Virus record (IMG/VR): IMGVR_UViG_3300046060_000085
Coordinates: 1 to 39,443 of that record
Source of the DNA: a virus
Lineage: Duplodnaviria > Caudoviricetes
DNA length: 39,443 bases
Reading direction: 5' to 3' (one strand)
In this document: positions 2,643 through 39,210 of the stretch, piece by piece
Position numbering within the stretch: position 1 is the stretch's first letter
Layout: each line of letters begins with the position of its first letter
The notes under the pieces: generated by a model
What the model saw: only the letters and a program-made list of their open reading frames with translations
What the model was told of the DNA's origin: nothing
Databases searched by the model: none
Program-made: the position numbers and the translations under genes

Positions 2643-2832
2643 TGTTCATCCTCGTAGTGGTCTCGCGATTGCAATTCTGGCAGGTGCTGACGCGGTACGG
2701 TTCGCGGGAGAACTCCGCGTTCTCGTTGTGTTCGCTCTCGGTCCGCATCTCGACCGACACCTCGTGGGGTGTCCGGCGGTCGCAGTCCTCGCAGTCCTCG
2801 CGAAGCTCGTCGGTCCAGTTCACCGCCGACAT
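2635..2832 (-). CDS. Small haloarchaeal Zn-ribbon protein (65 aa)
   Basis: MSAVNWTDELREDCEDC...SREPYRVSTCQNC; TGATG coupling at 2832; true start lies inside the longer ORF-track call. Confidence 0.8.
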   Translation of the reverse strand: MSAVNWTDELREDCEDCDRRTPHEVSVEMRTESEHNENAEFSREPYRVSTCQNCNRETTTRMNNA

Positions 2833-3662
2833 CAGGCGGTCACCTCCTCCGACCGAGCATCCTTCACGACCTTGGGTAGCTCGGGGTACTCGCGGATTTT
2901 GCGAGCCTCGGTGACGCCGGGCTCGACCTCGACCGAGAGGTCGACCCCACGCTCGGGGTAGCGCGCGCTCGACTGCTTGAAGTGGAACGCGACGTCCGCC
3001 TCGCGGCACTGCCGGCGGAGGTCGTCCGCCCAGCGGTGATCCATCTCGCGGCGTTGCGCCTTCGGCCCGGTCTCGCCGCCGACCACTGCCCAGTCGATGC
3101 CCGAGAGGTCCACGTCGCCGATCGGCTCGATGAGGGGCTCGAACGACACCCAGCGCGTCGCGACGTCGGCCTCGCGGAGCTGGTCGATTCGATGCGTCGT
3201 ATCTGGGAACTGGCCGCCGGGCCCACTGCCGACGGAGGTGCCCAGCCAGACGTTCTCGGGGAAGTCGAGGTCCCACTCGGCCGCGTTCTGCGGGCGCTTG
3301 GTGAGCGAGATGAACACCTGTTCGGGATGCTCGCCGCAGACGTCGAGGACGCGCTGGGCGAAGTCGGGGCCGACCTCGCGGTGGTAGAGGTCGCCCATCG
3401 ACACGACGAACACGCGACCGGGCCCTTTCGGGTAGGTGTAGCTCGCGGGCTCGTCAAGGCGGTCGCCGTGGCAGGTGACCACGCTCGGGGCGTTCTCTTG
3501 GATCCACTCCTCGCCGGTGACGTGCTCGGGTGGCTCGTCGCGGGCGGATTGGCGGAGTTCCATGGTTTCCGCCCAGCAGTTCCAGCACTCCGGGCCAGCA
3601 TGCGAACAGCCGGTGACGGGGTTCCAGGTGTAGTCAGCCCAGCTGATGTTCGTCGTCTGCAT
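2832..3662 (-). CDS. Phage Gp37/Gp68 (DUF5131) family, three-Cys radical-SAM-like protein
   Basis: TWNPVTGCSHAGPECWNCWAE, VFVVSMGDL, LTKRP, WLGTSV, SFEPL, WAVVGGETG, FHFKQ. Confidence 0.92.
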   Translation of the reverse strand: MQTTNISWADYTWNPVTGCSHAGPECWNCWAETMELRQSARDEPPEHVTGEEWIQENAPSVVTCHGDRLDEPASYTYPKGPGRVFVVSMGDLYHREVGPDFAQRVLDVCGEHPEQVFISLTKRPQNAAEWDLDFPENVWLGTSVGSGPGGQFPDTTHRIDQLREADVATRWVSFEPLIEPIGDVDLSGIDWAVVGGETGPKAQRREMDHRWADDLRRQCREADVAFHFKQSSARYPERGVDLSVEVEPGVTEARKIREYPELPKVVKDARSEEVTA

Positions 3663-4693: not shown

Positions 4694-5110
4694 TTACTCA
4701 CCTCCGTTACCCTGGAGTTTGCCTTTGAACGAGTTCATGAGGCGCTGGAGTTGCTCGGCGATGAGCTGGACGCCGTCGTTGGTCAGCTCGTAGTGGTTGG
4801 TGCGCTTGTCGAGTTCGCTCTTCTCGACGAGGCCGTGCTCGACGAGGGTGTCGAGGTTGGGGTAGAGGCGGCCGTGGTTGACCTCCTCGCCGAGCCATTC
4901 GTCGGTTTCGAGGATGTCCTTGATGGCGAGTCCCATCGCGCCCGCGGGGGCGCGGCCGTCGTACCGGCCGCGCTGGCAACCGCGCAGAACGAACAGGATG
5001 TTCGTCTGGAACGCGGTGAGGTCGGTATCCGAGACGGCCTCGCTGGCGTTCTCGAACTCGAAGCCCGAGTCGTCGGACTCCGTTTCGGCGTCGGCCTGTG
5101 CGGCGGTCAT
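4694..5110 (-). CDS. PadR-family wHTH transcriptional regulator
   Basis: DLTAFQTNIL...GLAIKDILE...EVNHGRLYPNLDTLVEHGLVEKSELDKRTNHYELT; ATG at 5110 overlaps the upstream stop. Confidence 0.88.
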   Translation of the reverse strand: MTAAQADAETESDDSGFEFENASEAVSDTDLTAFQTNILFVLRGCQRGRYDGRAPAGAMGLAIKDILETDEWLGEEVNHGRLYPNLDTLVEHGLVEKSELDKRTNHYELTNDGVQLIAEQLQRLMNSFKGKLQGNGGE

Positions 5111-5499
5111 CGCGACCCTCCCATCGAGACCGTGCGGCCGCAGGTCGTGCAACGCTCTTCGATCACGGCCTTCCCGCGAGCGTCGGTCCGGCCGTAGCGT
5201 CGGGTCCGTGGGTGCGAGCACCAGATGCCGACGTAGCCGCCGTCGGCGACGATTTGGTCGCCGCGGTCGATGGACTGGGTGCCAGCAGGGTTATCCGGAC
5301 TGGATGAGAACTGTTCGATTGGACGGGACTCCTGGGGTGAATGTTCTCCCGTCTGTGCATCCGCGATGGCACGCGGGTGCGTTTTCTGAGAGGCCCCCGC
5401 TAGGGAGTCGTTACTGGTTCGGTCGCCAGCGCGGCGACGGGTTGCTTCCGCTGTTCGATGGGCCTTATTCTTAAGACCCCTGATAGTGTCGTTCGACAT
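5107..5499 (-). CDS. Hypothetical protein, first gene of leftward operon 1
   Basis: Preceded by GGGAG and a structured leader; IVADGG motif; CSH...CTTC. Confidence 0.65.
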   Translation of the reverse strand: MSNDTIRGLKNKAHRTAEATRRRAGDRTSNDSLAGASQKTHPRAIADAQTGEHSPQESRPIEQFSSSPDNPAGTQSIDRGDQIVADGGYVGIWCSHPRTRRYGRTDARGKAVIEERCTTCGRTVSMGGSR

Positions 5500-5597
5500 G
5501 GCTTCTAAACTCCCTTGGTGGGATTGGAAGCCAAGTCCGACGTGCTTGTGACACGTCGGGCACCTTTTGACGGCACCCGAGAGGACTTGCTTCCAAT
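5498..5597. ncRNA. Structured 5' leader of operon 1 with a putative cis-antisense sRNA (+, ~5498-5568)
   Basis: Inverted repeats 5499-5508/5524-5533, 5523-5538/5583-5597, 5537-44/5552-59, 5556-64/5572-80. Confidence 0.55.
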
Positions 5598-5614
5598 TGG
5601 ACCCTTTTACTACA

Positions 5615-5692
5615 GGCCTATAATGTTACCGGTGGTAGCACCCACAGTGGAGGATGCCGATAGCCCTATTTGGGATGCTACCAACAGTATCA
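5615..5692. promoter_or_regulatory. Divergent promoter region with two palindromic operators
   Basis: Minus-strand TATA (ATTATAG, ~5618-5624); TGTTACC-N3-GGTAGCA at 5624-5640; TGCTACC-N3-AGTATCA at 5676-5692. Confidence 0.6.
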
Positions 5693-5695
5693 TGT

Positions 5696-6004
5696 ATGAC
5701 CCGCTTTTCGGATAGGATGATGCTGCTGCAGCTCCCGACGGACCAGTTGATTCTCGAGGAGCTGCAGGACGGTCGGAATCTCGGTGCGAACATCGCAGAG
5801 GAGATCGACCGACATCGAAAGACGGTGACTAAGCGCCTGAACCAACTCGAAGACTACGAGCTCGTTGAGAACATCGGCAGGGGAGTCTACGAAATCACCC
5901 TGCGCGGCGAAATTGCTCTTGAGCATATCGACGAGTACGACAGAGACACGACAGAGTTGGAAGAGCTCATCGAAGAGGAGTACGAACAGCGGAGTCAAGA
6001 CTGA
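5696..6004 (+). CDS. Winged-HTH repressor
   Basis: TDQLILEELQDGRNLGANIAEEIDRHRKTVTKRLNQLEDYELVENIGRGVYEIT; start at 5696 or 5717. Confidence 0.85.
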   Translation: MTRFSDRMMLLQLPTDQLILEELQDGRNLGANIAEEIDRHRKTVTKRLNQLEDYELVENIGRGVYEITLRGEIALEHIDEYDRDTTELEELIEEEYEQRSQD

Positions 6005-6058
6005 CCCACTGCGAGCGAACTCGCCCCGGTCGAAGACTCGGACTGACACCATTCTCGT

Positions 6059-6307
6059 CTATGCCCGCTGGAGTCTCGCGACGATGTCGTCCATCCAGTC
6101 CGGGACCTCGACGTCCGCCAGTTCGCCGTCGGCATTCCACGTCGTGACCACGGTGATGTTCCCTGCCCGTGTGATGTTGAGCCGCCACTTCGGCCCGTCC
6201 TCGGCGCTGATGTCGACGCGCGTGCCGCCGTTGGCGAGCGGTTTGATGGGCTTTACGGCCACCTCGGTGCCATCGTAGGCTTCGAGTTTTCGCATGCTCT
6301 CAGGCAT
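6059..6307 (-). CDS. Small protein downstream of cdc6; candidate antirepressor (SNJ2 Orf7-like position)
   Basis: Own TATA (TTTATAA) at 6335-6341; function inferred from position only. Confidence 0.65.
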   Translation of the reverse strand: MPESMRKLEAYDGTEVAVKPIKPLANGGTRVDISAEDGPKWRLNITRAGNITVVTTWNADGELADVEVPDWMDDIVARLQRA

Positions 6308-6334: not shown

Positions 6335-7405
6335 TTATAAAGAGGTTGTATTTCCGGCATCCACGTCGTCGAGATCGAGCAGTGGCTCCACCGACGCATC
6401 GACCACCCGATACACGCGATTCTGCGGGTCCCCCTCGAACTCGATCAGCTCGTACTCCGTGAGCTTCGCCAGTTTGTTCCGCCGCGCCCGCCGGCCAATC
6501 GGCATCCGCTCCCTGCCCAAGTAGATGTCCTCACGAACATCGTACCGGTCATGCAACTCGCCAGCAGGGAGTTCACCAGCCTCGTGCAGGAGCCCATAGA
6601 GGACGTGGTGGTGGATGGTGAGCGAGTACAGGTTCGACTGGCGAATCCGATGCTGGGCGCGCTCGTAGGCGTCGTCGATGTCGCCGTCCCGGATGCGAGC
6701 GTGGTCGCGGTCGAACGCGATCTCGGCGGCCGAGCGAAGGACCTGGATCCCCGAGCGGGCGACGCCCGCCACTTCGTCAGCAATCGCCCGCAGTTGGTCG
6801 TTGGTGACCGTGTTCGGTCGGAGGCCGACGTTCGCGCGAGCGCGAAGAATCGACGAGAGTTCATCGACGCGGTAGCGCCCGAGCCGGATGGGGCCCGAGA
6901 CGCGTCGGCGAACCGTCTCGGGGGCGCGAGCCAGCCAGCGCTGTGGGTCGTGGACAACGGCGACGAACGAGACGTGGGAGAGGTCCGAGAGGACGTCGAG
7001 GAGATCGGTTTCGGGGAGCGAGTCAGCCTCGTCGAGAACGAGAAGATAGGGCTGGTCGATGGTCTCGCGGAGGCTGGTGCGGAGGTCATCGATGGATGCG
7101 TCGCTGGGGGTGGTGTGCTGGCTGGGGTAGTCCTTGAGGGCGGTCTGGAGTACGTCGGCGGTGGTTTCGCCGAGGCAGGGGATGTGGGTGTGGGCGACGG
7201 TGGCGAACTGGTCGAGTTTGCCGAGGGTGTGGCGGGCGAGGGCGGTCTTGCCGACGCCGCTGGGGCCAGCGAGGAGGACGTCGTCGGCGGGCTGGCTGGC
7301 GAGCGCGGGGTCGAGTGTGCGCGAGAGCGCTTCGACTTCGCCTTCGCGGTGCTTGAGTTCCCGCGGGAGGTGGTCGTCCCGGAATACTTGGGGATTTGTT
7401 ATCAT
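6335..7405 (-). CDS. cdc6: Orc1/Cdc6-family AAA+ protein (provirus type)
   Basis: LPRELKHREGE, Walker A GPSGVGKT, Walker B LLVLDEAD, C-terminal wHTH. Confidence 0.93.
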   Translation of the reverse strand: MITNPQVFRDDHLPRELKHREGEVEALSRTLDPALASQPADDVLLAGPSGVGKTALARHTLGKLDQFATVAHTHIPCLGETTADVLQTALKDYPSQHTTPSDASIDDLRTSLRETIDQPYLLVLDEADSLPETDLLDVLSDLSHVSFVAVVHDPQRWLARAPETVRRRVSGPIRLGRYRVDELSSILRARANVGLRPNTVTNDQLRAIADEVAGVARSGIQVLRSAAEIAFDRDHARIRDGDIDDAYERAQHRIRQSNLYSLTIHHHVLYGLLHEAGELPAGELHDRYDVREDIYLGRERMPIGRRARRNKLAKLTEYELIEFEGDPQNRVYRVVDASVEPLLDLDDVDAGNTTSL

Positions 7406-9649: not shown

Positions 9650-10233
9650 CAGGCATCACCGTCCTCGTCTTCGACGAGTTTGACACTCGCGTTGTGGCCA
9701 ACCTTCCGCAAGTCACGCTGTGGGCCCTTCTCTACAGCGCCGGTCGTGGCCCAGACGTGGTAGACGTCGCCAGCGTCGGTCCGAATGCCGAGTTTGTAGA
9801 CGCTGCCGGAACGTGTGGGGAGCCAGTTCACGACTTCGCCCGTCCGCTCTTGGGGGTCGTGCTGGCTGTTCTGGGGGTCGTAGGTGACCGACACGCGCGT
9901 GCCGAGCGGGAGATCCGCGTGCTCGGCAGTGGTGCCCGCCGCGATGGTGATCGTGGCGGCGGGGACGGTGGCGGTCGCGCCATTGTCGCCGCGGAGCACG
10001 ATGCAGTCGCCGGCTGTCGTGACGTCGTGCGGACTGGTGACACGGGCGGTCCGACCCGCGTCGTCGTGGAGGACGACCGCGGTTGCGCCCGCGTCGAACT
10101 GGCGTGCGACGGCGTCGATGACGGTCTCGGCGTCGATTATGGCCGAGATATCTCGTGGGGCAGGGAGTTCGCGGTAGATTGCCCCGGTCGGTGCTTCGGT
10201 AGCGTTTTCTGCGTTCACGTTCTTGGTTGACAT
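9649..10233 (-). CDS. Hypothetical protein, first gene of leftward operon 2
   Basis: ATG at 10233 preceded by GGTGA; beta-rich C-terminal domain. Confidence 0.7.
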   Translation of the reverse strand: MSTKNVNAENATEAPTGAIYRELPAPRDISAIIDAETVIDAVARQFDAGATAVVLHDDAGRTARVTSPHDVTTAGDCIVLRGDNGATATVPAATITIAAGTTAEHADLPLGTRVSVTYDPQNSQHDPQERTGEVVNWLPTRSGSVYKLGIRTDAGDVYHVWATTGAVEKGPQRDLRKVGHNASVKLVEDEDGDA

Positions 10234-10308
10234 GCTTCGTCTCACCGTGGCGAAGCGCGAGGTCGGGCGCTCCATCGCCCGGCCGAGATTTTCCCGGCGT
10301 CGCGCTTC
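10232..10308. ncRNA. Structured 5' leader of operon 2 with a putative cis-antisense sRNA (+, ~10232-10292)
   Basis: Inverted repeats 10234-41/10249-56, 10252-60/10300-08, 10261-69/10276-84, 10282-88/10292-98. Confidence 0.55.
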
Positions 10309-10332
10309 TTACCCGATAGTATGTGGTGCTTG

Positions 10333-10435
10333 CCCTTATAGTTTGTGTTACAAACTCTTATACATAGCTCTCATCTACAGCTTGTGTCACAAACACTAAG
10401 TCGCGGGCGCACGTCGGTGGATTTGTAATGCAAGC
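10333..10435. promoter_or_regulatory. Divergent promoter with three TTGT-N3-(A/G)CAA operators
   Basis: Operators at 10343-53, 10382-92 and 10423-33; minus-strand TATA CTATAAG at 10335-41. Confidence 0.7.
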
Positions 10436-10451
10436 CAGAGACACAAGCGGT

Positions 10452-10697
10452 ATGGCACTCGACGAAGACGATCTCCGGGAGATCGACAGGGTCATCCTCG
10501 GCTATCTCCAAGAGGGCCGGGTGACGCCCGCCTACTGTCGCGACCGCATCCTCGACGAAGGCGTTCGCTCCGAGATCACCTCGACCTACTGCAGCCAACG
10601 CCTCGGACGCCTCGAAGAACACGACCACGTCCGGAATCTCTACAACACCGGACTCTACGAACTGGTCAGCGATCCCTGCGACGGGACTGGACGCTGA
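10452..10697 (+). CDS. phiH1-repressor-like wHTH protein
   Basis: DRVILGYLQEGRVTP...TYCSQRLGRLEEHDHVRNLYNTGLYELVSDP. Confidence 0.8.
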   Translation: MALDEDDLREIDRVILGYLQEGRVTPAYCRDRILDEGVRSEITSTYCSQRLGRLEEHDHVRNLYNTGLYELVSDPCDGTGR

Positions 10698-10776: not shown

Positions 10777-12571
10777 ATGAGCCTCGAAACCAAAGACCCC
10801 GACACAAACAGCGAGATGACCGACGAACAGACTATCACCGTCGGCGACACCACCGACGGCCAGTCCTACCAGCTCCCCGTCGAGGACGTCCTCACCGGCC
10901 GCGCGTTCGCCACCGGCAAGAGCGGCGCAGGCAAATCCAACACCGGCTCAGTTATCGCAGAAGAACTCCTCACACGCGGCCACCCTCTGCTCATTGTGGA
11001 TACCGACGGCGAGTACTGGGGGCTGAAGGAGGAATACGAAATCCTCCACGTCGGCGCGACCGACGAGTGCGACCTCCAGGTCGGGCCCGAACACGCGGGG
11101 AAGCTCGCCGAGCTCGCGCTCGACCAGCACATCCCGATCATCCTCGACGTCTCCGGCTACGTCGATAGCGACACGAGCGACGCACTCGTCCGGGAGACCG
11201 CCCCAGGAGTTGTTCGCGCGCGAACAGCAGGCGATGCAGCCGTTTTTGATGCTCGTCGAGGAGATCCACGAGTACATCCCGGAGGGCGGCGGTCTTGACG
11301 AGACAGGCGAGATGCTCATCCGGGTCGCGAAGCGCGGCCGGAAGCGCGGCCTCGGCATCATGGGGCTCAGCCAGCGCCCTGCGGACGTTAAGAAGGACTT
11401 CATCACGCAGGCTGATTTCCTCGTCTGGCATCGCCTCACGTGGGACAACGACACCGACGTCGTCAAGCGCGTCGTTGGCAGCGAGTTCGGTGACGAGGTG
11501 CAGGACCTCGCGGACGGCGAAGCGTTCGTGCAGGCCGACTGGAGCGAGGTGGACGTCGAGCGTGTGCAGTTCCGACGAAAGCACACGTTCGACGCGGGCG
11601 CGACGCCTGGCCTCGACGATGTGGCCCGGCCGGAGTTGAAGAGCATCGGCGAGGATCTCGTCGAGGACTTGGACGAGATCTCGGCACGCGAGGAGCGCCG
11701 CCTCGACCGCGTCAGCGAACTCGAAGCCCAGCTGGCGGAGAAAGACGCACGGATTGACGACCTCGAACAGGAACTTGAGAATAAGGAGGATATCGCGGAC
11801 GCCGCCCAGCAGATGGCGGCAGCGCTCCAGCAGGGCACGGACGGGGAGCGCGCGGACGAGGTCCCAGGGGACTGGGAGGAGACACTGGAGGCGAAGAACG
11901 AGCGGATCCACGACCTCCAGGAGGACCTCGCGGCCGTTCGCGAGGAGCGCGACGAGTTGCGGGAGCGCGCCGAGGCGGCCGAATCGGAAGCAGAGCGGCT
12001 GGGGTCCTACCAAGAGCGCGTCGAGCAGGCCGAGGAGATCGAGGAGCAACTAGCGAAGGCCCGTGAGGTCCTCGGCGTGGAGGGTAAGGCCGAGGCTGGC
12101 CAGCCTGGTGCCGCCGACGGAGACAACAGTGAGCTTCGCGCCGAGCTCAACCAGCGCGAGGAGACGATCGCCGAACTGGAGGCGGAGATCGACCGTCTCC
12201 AAGAGCAGGGTTACTCGCTCGACGAGGAGTTCGAATCGAAGATGGACTTCATCCAGCACGAGGCCGTCCGCGAGGAGATTGAGCGCGCGGCCTCGAAGTC
12301 GAAGTGCAAGGCCGACCACACGTGGGACGTTCTCTCGGTGCTGATCGACCAGGAGTCGCCGACTACCGACGAGATTGCGACCTACTGTGACGTCACGAAG
12401 ACGTCAGTCCAGAACATCCTCTCGAAGCTCGCCGAGCAGAACGTCGTCGCGAAGAACACGAAGCGGGGGAAGGCGCGCTACGAGCTGAACGTCGACGGGA
12501 TGCGGAACATCATCCAGCAGCAGCGGAAGCGGAGCGAGATCTCGAACCTCAAAGAGCAGGTGAAGAGCTGA
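10777..12571 (+). pseudogene. HerA/DUF87-like ATPase + coiled coil + wHTH, split by a +1 frameshift at ~11201-11204
   Basis: Walker A GKSGAGKS in the first frame; Walker B MLVEEIHEY and SQRPA in the second; deleting one C from GCCCCAG gives ETAQELFAREQ. Confidence 0.8.
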
Positions 12572-33200: not shown

Positions 33201-33215
33201 GATTGTTATCGTAGA

Positions 33216-33338
33216 TTAGAAGCGTTTGAGTTCCTGCCAGCCCTCCCGTGTGCGGATGCCGACGACGGTCTCGTTGGCCTCGTCATGCACCTGGAGCGGG
33301 GCACCGAGGGCGAGTTCGATTGGGGGCTGGCGAGCCAT
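33216..33338 (-). CDS. Small protein (40 aa)
   Basis: MARQPPIELALGAPLQVHDEANETVVGIRTREGWQELKRF. Confidence 0.5.
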   Translation of the reverse strand: MARQPPIELALGAPLQVHDEANETVVGIRTREGWQELKRF

Positions 33339-37800: not shown

Positions 37801-39210
37801 AACGCGGCGAGCGTCGAGGCGGTCGAGCGCGGCGAAGACGTCCCGGATGTCGTCAGTAGTCTCCGTCGACGACGTCGCGCTTGGCTGGTAGTCGTCGAGG
37901 TCGTAGTCCTCGCGAGTAGTCGAGACGTCGTCATCCCGGTCGCGCTGGCTGGTGGCGACCTCGTCGTTCGCGTCGAGGAGCGCGTCTAGGACGTCGGCGT
38001 TCCAATCGCGGATCTCGGTCGGGGTGCCGAGGACGTGGTCGCCGGTCGCGACGCACACGCGCTTGCCGGGATAGATCTCGATGGAGGGGAGGTCGTCGTT
38101 GTCTCCCCAGGGCTCGTCGTCGATCTGCCACGCCGCCTGCTTGACCCCGTCGGGGAGATCGCCGCGGTACTGGGCGTGGACGCCCGCGCCGGACTGGGAG
38201 ACGTCGGCGTACGTCAGGCCGAGATGTTCGAGGATCGCCTCGAAGGCGGGGTGAACCTCGCCGGTCTTGCGGTCGCGGACATCGTCCCCGTCGACGTAGA
38301 CGTAGGGGTCGCTCTCCTGTTGGAGGAACGCGCGGCCGTCGAGGCGGTCGTCGACCTCGGCCATCGCGATGGTTTCGCCGTCGACGTAGTGGCCGGTGTA
38401 GCCCCACTTCCAGCGAGCGTCGCAGTCGCACTTCGCGGCGGTGTCGTGGCCGTCTCTGCTACACTCCGCGGGCGCGTTGCGGTCGCCCCACGGCGCGAAC
38501 GGCTTCTTGTCCCGGTGGCCCATCCACTGCTCGCGGTCGAGGAGTTGCTGCGGCCAGACGCCAGACTCGGGAGTGGCGAAGTTGGCCTCGTTCCACCCAG
38601 AGTTGGTCGGTCGTGCATCGTCGGAGCTGAGGTCCTCCGAGATCTCGGGGTCGGAGTGTGCATCGTCGTGGGTATCTTCTGGGGTGTCGCTAGCCGAGTC
38701 GGTCGCGGTGGTAGGTTGGTCGTCGGGGGTGGCGAGACGAATCGCGGGATTCTCGCTGAGGGTGTCGTCGGCGAGTTCGAGGGCGTCGGTCTCGCGGAGG
38801 GCGTCCCGGAACTCGTAGTCGCTGTAGCCGTGCGCTTGGGCTTGCGCAAGGAGTTCGTCGCGGGGGACGGGCGCGAGGATTTCCTCGTGCCCGAGGCGGC
38901 CCTGGGTCTCCCACATTAACTCGATGACGTCGATGTCCGCGTCGGCTTCGTCGCGGTGCGTGCCAGACTGTTCGTCGAGGTCTGAGCGAGACCGTTCTCG
39001 CGACCTTCTACCGTGGTCCGGGGTGCTACTACTTGTGCTTTCGGGCGAATCGGTGGATTCGGAGGTGTCCTCACGGAGGGCGTCCGCGACCGCGGTCGGC
39101 GACGCGTTGAGTGCGCCCGCGAGTTCCGGGACGTCAGCGTCCGGGTGCTGGTCACGATACTGGGCGACGCGCTCGGCGAGCGAAAGGTCGTCCCCCGTCA
39201 AGGCGACCAC
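34885..39210 (-). CDS. Replication protein: primase-polymerase (AEP-like) + SF2-like helicase + wHTH
   Basis: YVYVDGDDV, YADVSQSGAGVH, IEIY; DAGAGKTT, VLIDE, AARGLN, EQVIHRIR; C-terminal ERTVRRWVADLEAIGLL. Confidence 0.82.
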   Translation of the reverse strand: MVALTGDDLSLAERVAQYRDQHPDADVPELAGALNASPTAVADALREDTSESTDSPESTSSSTPDHGRRSRERSRSDLDEQSGTHRDEADADIDVIELMWETQGRLGHEEILAPVPRDELLAQAQAHGYSDYEFRDALRETDALELADDTLSENPAIRLATPDDQPTTATDSASDTPEDTHDDAHSDPEISEDLSSDDARPTNSGWNEANFATPESGVWPQQLLDREQWMGHRDKKPFAPWGDRNAPAECSRDGHDTAAKCDCDARWKWGYTGHYVDGETIAMAEVDDRLDGRAFLQQESDPYVYVDGDDVRDRKTGEVHPAFEAILEHLGLTYADVSQSGAGVHAQYRGDLPDGVKQAAWQIDDEPWGDNDDLPSIEIYPGKRVCVATGDHVLGTPTEIRDWNADVLDALLDANDEVATSQRDRDDDVSTTREDYDLDDYQPSATSSTETTDDIRDVFAALDRLDARRVANRTIVASWNDNASTSDGYRAFAPTWGRSANGTANIVDDRIWQDTGDEGGYGGPVVMSLIHMGEMSHRNASPRRARGELWFTAIEHLRELGFDIPELVTTTPDRNASNTQWNVEECDPPVRDAESFDREERWAALEGERYDEFLDATGPVIFGDDAGAGKTTNAARAAATRDRPHAVLFDKHEKAREFIKDDATPDRYFHLKGGAQKRDPVCMDADHADEDCPTHPNGDCAHVCPVYDLGQDHPDRKRYEALADQLGPVRAHTLLGDELPGHDEDGNCAWLDQFAEAASADQIAGVHEYQTLKTIRNPANGPDRDVLIDETPGALRSEQDLSVEDLVRLGNALEGIGNYAGAPDVLGELAAFAHRLVDALTNPDGPLTLAAIDPPAVDGELISVEVDPDDLPADVDPDDVEQTTKKEFKGMPSEGYRKRTCYVVERELVAETLAEAKLEYNETILKRMREDDWNGEPLAVDALLAAAMEAGLPSDQARKAIAASDFLEQCPRCGGDLTHQDGGRVCNQEDGCGWDERTDFLVGKTAEAARASAYLHADIEDGARLTYESLPLVSDLPSKPLVLDATAVPQKVAGLYGVPTDHVAVTGDEPLDANLQVTQVLNGQYHWSTLKQTESLRERVERAVEKLATVHDNLLVVGRQEAREILDIPESVEWLHYHAARGLNRTECDAVVCLGAPHANVEDLEREAALLSQDHDDLRVGGTEHSTRQDCSNPPVYRKLLYEDDHGRGRAVPTKHYTGLVGELFEETREKELEQVIHRIRPLLADETKHAYLLTNVPTDVPVDEVCQFEELADPLHALLPVADRALDLADVIASAGEGDGPDGFRAETLIETTGGDATADGVEFNIEAIHRLAQFHGLDVTERTVRRWVADLEAIGLLDAGAYEQRSGVVYTAEIATLTQALSVLTGNDSVEVALTRRLRALVEESKSLTDWLPVAREVFGLSGNRHELGSARLDPGGGT

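What the first reader, a model, noticed from the sequence alone, without database searches (positions are those of the whole stretch)
5466..5597. Antisense-RNA / switchable-leader system in front of early operon 1
Seen: on the minus mRNA, UGGCUUCCAA (5533-5524) can pair with the 5' end of the leader (5597-5583, 15 bp with one bulge). It can instead pair with the start-codon region (5508-5499), which buries GGGAG and the A of the AUG. These two pairings are mutually exclusive. Two overlapping internal hairpins with 7-nt loops also compete. The start-proximal hairpin has a G-U on the + strand but a C-A mismatch on the minus strand, while the distal hairpin has two G-U pairs only on the minus strand. 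A + strand TATA-like element (TTCTTAAG, ~5468-5475) inside the ORF points to a start near 5498, and a T4 run follows the second hairpin (5565-68). Inference: a ~70-nt two-hairpin antisense RNA flips the leader into the translation-off state. This is reminiscent of phiH Tant antisense control and P1 C4/P4 CI RNAs, though I cannot assign it to a family.
Basis: partly seen in the sequence, partly recalled or inferred. Interest (0 to 1): 0.8.

Follow-up and report, generated by a model that had tools for sequence, protein, structure and literature searches.

The report
Widespread phiH-type leader–antisense RNA module
This virus of salt-loving archaea has a folded messenger leader, shared with more than a hundred related elements, whose layout matches the antisense RNA site of virus phiH, so it likely makes an opposite-strand RNA that would keep the first early gene switched off.

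Summary
The structure is real (z about -5 to -6). The window is a tailed haloarchaeal virus whose early operon faces an SNJ2-type repressor module. The leader belongs to a family with no Rfam match, hit in 74 of 151 sampled Halobacteria genomes. Both exclusive pairings covary. The start-proximal stem carries 121 A·C against 3 G-U in the mRNA, which favours folding on the opposite strand. A profile of the 39 bases after the ATG, trained without phiH or this window, ranks the phiH T(ant) gene 1 of 1062 ATGs and 5499 1 of 730; T(ant) starts one base before that ATG. So an antisense RNA from about 5500 is likely. It would cover the start region directly rather than flip the leader; its length is open. 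Against: no matching start site in H. volcanii dRNA-seq tables, reads at one homologue show a long antisense RNA rather than a short one, and two covariance models miss phiH. No transcript data exist for this window. The scan reported this family before on other DNA (e1-10025636).

The parts
5500..5595 (-). Predicted 5' leader of the early operon (start inferred at 5594-5595)
   Evidence: TTATA at 5623-5619; homologous leaders have mapped starts at the a1 arm: SNJ2 114 nt, H. volcanii HVO_1422A 105 nt, phiH T1
5583..5597 (-). a1 arm plus extension; pairs with b and with the 3' arm of H2 (ON fold)
   Evidence: covariation in 26 window-type elements, 6 of 10 pairs changed on both sides
5558..5578 (-). 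H1, distal hairpin, 7-nt loop, two G-U pairs on the mRNA strand
   Evidence: family-wide G-U 71 vs A·C 24 on the mRNA strand in 102 elements
5535..5561 (.). H2, middle hairpin; second hairpin of the predicted antisense RNA
   Evidence: A·C 65 vs G-U 28 on the mRNA strand in 121 elements
5524..5533 (-). b, the shared arm that pairs with a1 or with a2
5511..5523 (-). Small UCCC/GGGA hairpin, typical of the window-type subgroup, formed in both folds
5500..5508 (-). a2, the arm abutting the AUG; a near copy of a1
5458..5496 (+). Predicted antisense promoter block inside codons 2-14 (TTAA at 5471-5474 within a GC-armed palindrome)
   Evidence: profile rank 1 of 730 ATGs in the window, phiH T(ant) gene rank 1 of 1062; T[GA]AA at +27 in 89 of 120 elements
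5500..5568 (+). Predicted antisense RNA, minimal form: two hairpins and U4; may run on across the whole leader
   Evidence: fold z -6.2; start by analogy with phiH T(ant); no transcript data for this window
5619..5623 (-). TATA of the early promoter
   Evidence: sequence; TATA-like motif 18-40 nt before a1 in 96 of 102 elements
5624..5640 (.). Candidate repressor operator (TGTTACC-N3-GGTAGCA) next to the TATA
   Evidence: same position as the tested SNJ2 Orf4 palindrome
5676..5692 (.). Second candidate operator
   Evidence: inverted repeat I1
5107..5499 (-). First early ORF, 130 aa, C-terminal cysteine motif
   Evidence: one full-length homologue keeps the first 14 residues unchanged
4694..5110 (-). 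PadR-like second ORF, overlapping the stop of ORF1
   Evidence: Pfam PadR 1.3e-10; 44% to phiH PhiH1_295, 47% to SNJ2 Orf3 over 108 aa
5720..6004 (+). Divergent winged-helix repressor, SNJ2 Orf4-like (start codon uncertain)
   Evidence: 45.6% to the SNJ2 regulator over 70% of its length
6059..6307 (-). SNJ2 Orf7-like small protein (anti-repressor in SNJ2)
   Evidence: 28% over 50 aa, pairwise E 6e-8
6335..7405 (-). Orc1/Cdc6 homologue, SNJ2 Orf8-like
   Evidence: 34% over 349 aa; Pfam Cdc6_lid

Best explanation
The stretch is a conserved folded leader with two exclusive pairings, and it is likely overlapped by a phiH Tant-type antisense RNA that would start at about 5500 and would silence the first early gene by pairing over its start region. 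Steps: (1) The divergent repressor likely controls the early promoter (inferred from SNJ2). (2) The ~95-nt leader is predicted to fold ON by default: its 5' arm a1 holds b, so a2 next to the AUG stays open. (3) A counter-promoter in codons 2-14 likely makes an RNA beginning opposite the base before the AUG, folded into two hairpins. (4) That RNA would form a full duplex over a2, b and H2 and block translation, and, as reported for phiH, the duplex would probably be trimmed by a host RNase, leaving the downstream message. (5) The mRNA carries the mirror image of the antisense hairpins, which would close over its own start; the A·C mismatch weakens that mirror stem and a1 out-competes it. Loss of the first five bases is predicted to lock the message OFF. 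Shown: sequence, folds, conservation, covariation. Inferred: both transcripts in this virus, the block, the processing.
For: Family: 74 of 151 genomes hit by model R1, 33 of 151 by the window-type model R2 (all 20 loci returned show the anatomy); 98 of 110 elements with enough flank have a divergent repressor-like gene. Both pairings covary in 26 window-type elements: a1:b 6 of 10 pairs, on an alignment not fitted to that structure; b:a2 11 of 13 and H2 6 of 10, fitted. b:a2 non-canonical cells in 121 elements: 121 A·C, 3 G-U, 13 other, spread over five stem positions; the antisense fold is more stable in 119 of 121; H1 leans the other way. phiH: T(ant) starts at 38732, one base before the ATG of a PadR-like gene; T1 starts 151 bases upstream; its leader folds with the 5' end closing on a b-like arm and its antisense with two 5' hairpins; a1:b changes together between phiH1 and phiCh1; promoter-block rank 1 of 1062 (16.3 bits, next 6.8). 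Window: ON -59.5 vs OFF -57.1 kcal/mol; P(b:a2) 0.05 with the full leader, 1.00 with five bases removed. Reads at homologue L270: antisense 66-77x over the leader against 0-5x sense in run X22, while sense RNA is 190-540x further downstream.
Against: No RNA data for this window. The H. volcanii dRNA-seq table lists the mRNA start but no opposite-strand start near the ATG of the Halfvol3 element, a search of its upstream sequences for six family promoter words gave one unrelated row, and the 3'-end tables have no entry near the predicted terminator. At L219/L270 the antisense RNA is long, begins about 220 nt inside ORF1 and runs into the repressor gene; no start or end was called at the predicted positions (150-nt paired libraries, about 6% of each main run read, which lose short RNAs). 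In SNJ2 lysogens, operator mutations alone derepress a reporter carrying the whole leader, and a 5'-UTR palindrome mutation had no effect (plate assay). Models R1 and R2 do not hit the phiH leader. A·C also arises by single transitions and 59 of the A·C cells sit at one inherited position. a1:b itself has an A·C in 61 of 121 elements, and the OFF pairing is predicted to win in 30 of 102. T[GA]AA is missing from the block in 25 of 120.
Confidence: 0.6

Rival explanations
1. Cis-acting switch with no dedicated antisense RNA: the leader toggles between a1:b and b:a2 through a protein, folding kinetics or 5' trimming, and the palindrome after the ATG is an operator or an mRNA hairpin.
For: Small ON/OFF gap, 2.4 kcal/mol; both pairings covary; no antisense start site in the H. 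volcanii table; the palindrome is strand-neutral, G-U 44 vs A·C 45.
Against: A mapped antisense start lies at -1 in phiH behind the same block; the stem mismatch is almost always the one that pairs on the other strand; the A/T core keeps a fixed spacing.
Confidence: 0.15
2. One reading: a discrete ~70-nt RNA acts allosterically, capturing a loop or a1 so that the leader flips into b:a2.
For: Removing a1 flips the model completely; the antisense 5' arm is also complementary to a1 because a1 copies a2; A-rich run before H2 (at least 4 A in 8 nt) in 57 of 121.
Against: Full duplex gains about 73 kcal/mol and removes b and a2 together; GGGAG is not switched; phiH T(ant) is >151 nt.
Confidence: 0.12
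3. The effective regulator is a long counter-transcript from further inside the operon that also encodes the repressor; the -1 promoter is minor or vestigial outside phiH.
For: Read pattern at L270: antisense from about 220 nt inside ORF1 through the repressor, sense RNA nearly absent over the same span; published H. volcanii + strand RNA HVO_1422s inside the first ORF of Halfvol3.
Against: Does not explain the conserved block at +4..+42 (0.77 vs 0.13 bits per position further downstream) or hairpins that begin exactly at -1; one homologue only.
Confidence: 0.1
4. A P4 CI / P1 C4-like same-strand RNA is cut from the leader and pairs with a1 and a2 of new transcripts.
For: The a1-b-a2 order resembles seqA-seqB-seqC (recalled).
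Against: No Rfam C4-type match; b is paired in both folds, not exposed in loops; sense RNA is scarce over the leader at L270.
Confidence: 0.03

Closest known systems
Halobacterium virus phiH1 T1 / T(ant) pair (Stolt and Zillig 1993; original not seen; GenBank MK002701 notes, and review passages)
   Same: Antisense start at -1 to the first ATG (predicted here), related +4..+42 block, long early leader whose 5' end pairs with an arm near the start, two 5' hairpins in the antisense fold, PadR-like gene at the head of the operon, small divergent gene upstream.
   Different: Leader about 95 vs 151 nt; leader sequence not matched by R1 or R2; PadR is the second ORF here; upstream gene is an SNJ2-type repressor, not imm; the passages I saw mention no alternative fold; no transcript shown here.
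SNJ2 PInt leader and Orf4-Orf7-Orf8 switch (PMC10123103, PMC5861418)
   Same: Divergent repressor, palindrome beside the TATA, Orf7-like and Orc1/Cdc6 genes, long 5' UTR that is a member of this family (R1 95.6 bits, but it was in the training set).
   Different: Those papers contain no occurrence of 'antisense' and do not describe the leader fold in the parts I read; SNJ2 is a pleolipovirus, this is a tailed virus; the integrases are not detectably similar pairwise.
Bacterial cis-antisense RNAs over a translation start (IS10 RNA-OUT, P22 sar; recalled)
   Same: Promoter inside the 5' end of the target gene; small structured RNA covering the start region.
   Different: No sequence relation tested; archaeal promoter; added a1 arm.
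P4 CI / P1 C4 RNAs (recalled)
   Same: One segment complementary to an upstream and a downstream site.
   Different: Same-strand, processed RNAs; no Rfam match here.

Membership tests
phiH T1/T(ant) system | Antisense promoter inside the first codons of the first early gene | tested here: met
   One profile ranks both the phiH gene (1 of 1062) and 5499 (1 of 730) first; neither was in the training set. Sequence-level only.
phiH T1/T(ant) system | Long 5' leader on an early transcript, PadR-like gene at the head of the operon | tested here: met
   leader start in the window inferred from TATA and homologues
phiH T1/T(ant) system | Leader sequence/structure homology detectable by covariance model | tested here: not met
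   R1 and R2 give no hit at the T1 leader; only the architecture agrees
phiH T1/T(ant) system | Antisense transcript starting at -1 is expressed | tested here: inconclusive
   No reads for the window; at homologue L219/L270 antisense RNA covers the leader but no start at -1 was called; none in the H. volcanii table
phiH T1/T(ant) system | Duplex-dependent RNase processing removes the first ORF's start and spares the rest | tested here: inconclusive
   L270: sense RNA nearly absent where antisense lies and abundant beyond it; an internal promoter would look the same
SNJ2 Orf4-Orf7-Orf8 lysogeny switch | Repressor, Orf7-like and Orc1/Cdc6 genes in SNJ2 order, divergent from the early operon | tested here: met
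SNJ2 Orf4-Orf7-Orf8 lysogeny switch | Repression at a palindrome beside the TATA, relieved on DNA damage | not testable with these tools
   Candidate palindrome 5624-5640 present
P1 C4 / P4 CI RNAs | Match to Rfam C4-type models | tested here: not met
   0 matches at gathering score in the window; 0 at E<=1 in 9 homologous loci
P1 C4 / P4 CI RNAs | Same-strand RNA processed from the leader, acting through exposed loops | tested here: inconclusive
   b is paired in both predicted folds; short RNAs not assayable in the libraries laid

The most novel reading that the evidence does not exclude
phiH Tant is the outlying member of a class-wide riboregulator used by haloarchaeal myo-, sipho- and pleolipoviruses and other mobile elements, in which an antisense RNA starting at -1 and a true two-state leader form a second lysogeny lock beneath the protein repressor. 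Because elements occur in up to ten copies per genome and share the a2/b core, the RNAs could also cross-silence unrelated elements in the same cell.
Probability: 0.3. Interest if true: 0.85.

Novelty: new variant of a known kind. Interest (0 to 1): 0.65.

Why it matters
Tant was among the first antisense RNAs reported in archaea, and the phiH1 genome paper calls the topic not fully explored. If this family is Tant-like, a single 1990s example becomes a common control element with more than a hundred natural variants, testable in tractable hosts (SNJ2 in Natrinema J7, Halfvol3 in H. volcanii). It would add an RNA layer to the published SNJ2 switch, give substrates for finding the duplex-end RNase, and supply a compact repressible leader for haloarchaeal genetics.

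Tried and rejected
Close relatives: blastn of 5000-6100 against phages, the search for related loci with ORF1 and the repressor in viral contigs, and a window-specific pattern found nothing; pattern scans 41 and 59 in viral contigs gave 2 and 6 loci, none with the anatomy. Most of the 120 genome contigs pattern loci were chance bacterial matches; 22 were kept by eye. Searches used the wrong frame for the PadR gene and are void for it. Model R1 was given two helices one column out of register; it served as a search tool only and pair counts do not rest on it. The OFF index and the lower ON register were off by one and were corrected in 127 and 136. GGGAG as a switched ribosome-binding site: rejected (the larger subgroup lacks it). 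Loop motif GUCA-AA as a conserved ligand site: not kept across the family. Ten reads ending at L219:1147 in three runs may be a library hot spot and are not used. phiCh1's own first ATG was not among the top six by the profile. The phiH1 paper's supplement held nothing on T(ant). The switch calculation does not reproduce for the second window element.

Full report
Setting. The 39,443-base record is a tailed haloarchaeal virus or provirus: tyrosine integrase at 1-1332, tape measure, capsid, head morphogenesis and terminase genes further on. A leftward early operon starts at ATG 5499 with a 130-aa ORF and a PadR-like gene (4694-5110). Facing it are a winged-helix gene (5720-6004), an 82-aa ORF and an Orc1/Cdc6 gene, similar in order and sequence to SNJ2 Orf4, Orf7 and Orf8. 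In SNJ2 these form a tested repressor / anti-repressor / damage-sensor switch (PMC10123103: abstract, section 17 part 1 of 2, section 21, term search). A palindrome at 5624-5640 lies beside the early TATA, where SNJ2 has its operator.

The observation. I name the parts a1 (5' arm), H1, H2, b (5533-5524) and a2 (5508-5500). With a start at 5595, ON (a1:b) is -59.5 and OFF (b:a2) -57.1 kcal/mol; b:a2 has probability 0.05 with the full leader and 1.00 once five bases are removed. a2 is 0.77-0.84 unpaired in the full leader and about 0.3 when truncated; the AUG itself moves only from 0.4 to 0.3, and GGGAG stays near 0.2. These are 37 C, low-salt energy models.

A family. The SNJ2 leader has the same anatomy with a different sequence. 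blastn with it and with the window's leader found named haloarchaeal plasmid loci, nearly all of the annotated ones opposite a repressor-like gene. A pattern scan added 22 elements. Model R1, from 28 elements of the larger subgroup and not the window, hit 74 of 151 sampled Halobacteria genomes, up to 10 per genome, and ranked the window's element first within the window, though weakly (18.5 bits, E 0.0026). Model R2, from the window and four close elements, hit 33 of 151; the 20 loci returned all show the anatomy, the other matches were not inspected. Harhisp1 is hit by both models and Halfgib1 carries the element. Of about 158 matches I obtained 90 loci and gave 88 of them, with 12 earlier ones. 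After dropping two matches without ATG, two partial tandem copies and duplicates, 121 distinct elements were analysed. 98 of the 110 with 750 bases of flank have a divergent repressor-like ORF. Rfam has no match.

Both pairings are under selection. a1, b and a2 change together in many elements (for example L013, L151, L158, L168, L209, L213, L226, L228). In 26 window-type elements a1:b has 6 of 10 pairs changed on both sides (covariation 0.267 against 0.149 shuffled and at most 0.145 when slid), on an alignment fitted to the other structure. b:a2 has 11 of 13 and H2 6 of 10 (fitted). These counts do not correct for relatedness.

Which strand folds. In b:a2 the non-canonical cells are 121 A·C, 3 G-U and 13 other. 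A·C on the mRNA is G-U on the opposite strand, where the fold is more stable in 119 of 121. H2 leans the same way (65 to 28), H1 the opposite way (24 to 71), and the palindrome after the ATG is neutral (45 to 44), as a DNA element would be. Caveats: 59 A·C cells share one position, the seed pattern allowed this mismatch, transitions favour A·C, and a weakened mRNA stem is also useful to a cis switch.

The link to phiH. That protein is 44% identical to the window's PadR over 108 aa. A weight matrix of positions +4 to +42 from 116 elements, without the window, its subgroup or phiH, ranks this ATG 1 of 1062 in phiH1 (16.3 bits, next 6.8) and 5499 1 of 730 in the window (12.9, next 7.1). The block is conserved at 0.77 bits per position against 0.13 further into the ORFs, with T[GA]AA at +27 in 89 of 120, which puts TT[CT]A at -30 to -27 from a start at -1; in the window TTAA 5471-5474 is -29 to -26 from G5500. 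The phiH leader folds with its 5' end closing on an arm near the start, and its antisense begins with two hairpins; the a1:b pair changes on both sides in phiCh1. But neither model finds the phiH leader, so I claim shared promoter and layout, not a demonstrated single RNA family. What Tant does I know only from review passages (PMC4284463, PMC8707807, PMC6210493): the duplex is cut by a host RNase, the first ORF loses its ribosome-binding site, and the products persist.

Transcript evidence, all from homologues. Mapped mRNA starts fall at or just before a1: SNJ2 114 and 132 nt upstream (PMC5861418, passages and section 15) and H. volcanii HVO_1422A 105 nt upstream with TATA at -28 (PMC4983044, supplement rows only), located through the stated >90% similarity of Halfvol3 to Halfgib1 (PMC7911831, passages). 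That table lists no opposite-strand start near the ATG; PMC7237163 (supplement rows) lists no 3' end near the predicted terminator; PMC6490895 (supplement rows) lists an opposite-strand RNA, HVO_1422s, inside the ORF rather than over the leader. I laid 4 raw-read runs from 2 studies on L219/L270, a Halfgib1-like element (160 of 175 aligned positions identical). Taking the first mate as opposite to the RNA, which fits the repressor gene, antisense RNA dominates the leader (66-77x against 0-5x in X22), begins about 220 nt inside ORF1 and runs through the repressor; sense RNA is 190-540x beyond that point. This is what antisense-directed removal of the 5' part would give, but so would an internal promoter, and no start at -1 was called. 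A rise of 25-60% over the leader in X22 and X23 is only a hint. In SNJ2 lysogens, operator mutants were derepressed and a UTR palindrome mutation had no effect, which argues against strong silencing in trans; those reporters stopped at the ATG.

Mechanism. Most likely (0.6) an antisense RNA from about 5500 pairs over a2, b and H2 (about 73 kcal/mol gained) and shuts the first ORF, with a1 keeping the free message open against the mirror image of the antisense hairpins. A cis-only switch (0.15) and a long counter-transcript (0.10) remain open.

In print? Searches of the open library listed no paper whose title or abstract start describes this leader family; the two SNJ2 papers have no occurrence of 'antisense', and PMC12091111 (passages) uses it only for library preparation. 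Subscription papers, the 1990s phiH originals and bioRxiv supplements were not seen and could bear on this.

Verdict. Real, conserved and widespread; works like phiH Tant with good but indirect support; a new variant of a known kind. Interest 0.65.

Noticed in passing
window 10233-10310 (-): A second leader of the same anatomy in front of the ORF whose likely start is ATG 10233 (not 10275): three-way junction on the mRNA (z -2.8), two-hairpin antisense fold with G-U pairs (z -3.7), R1 18.1 bits. The ON/OFF calculation does not reproduce, and it was not among the top six by the promoter profile.
   Followed up: partly
window 10300-10440: AT-rich stretch with repeated TTTGTG-TACA/ACACA-like words before a divergent 89-aa ORF (10428-10697, no Pfam match); possibly a second repressor and operator set.
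   Followed up: no
BJ1 3598 and 9660 (+); Humcor1 27367 (+): Candidate elements of similar anatomy in two named tailed haloviruses, seen through the profile scan; not hit by R1.
   Followed up: partly
G005:C6 5773 and 7204; G012:C1 422833 and 425407; G013:C1 2216614 and 2218224; G079:C1 1817152 and 1818235: Elements often come in pairs 1-2.6 kb apart on the same strand.
   Followed up: no
L270 1295-1320: Sense and antisense coverage switch sharply about 20 bases apart inside the first ORF: sense 5' ends near 1295, antisense 5' ends near 1317-1322. Candidate duplex-end cleavage site or divergent promoter.
   Followed up: partly
window 10777-12571 (+): HerA-like N-terminus (10777-11298) and a coiled-coil/HTH C-terminus (11210-12571) in different frames; looks like one gene split by a frameshift.
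   Followed up: no
window 2832-3662 (-): DUF5131 protein in the early operon.
   Followed up: no
phiCh1 33204-33222 and 53737-53753: Two further exact or near copies of the b-loop segment of the phiH T1 leader elsewhere in phiCh1.
   Followed up: no
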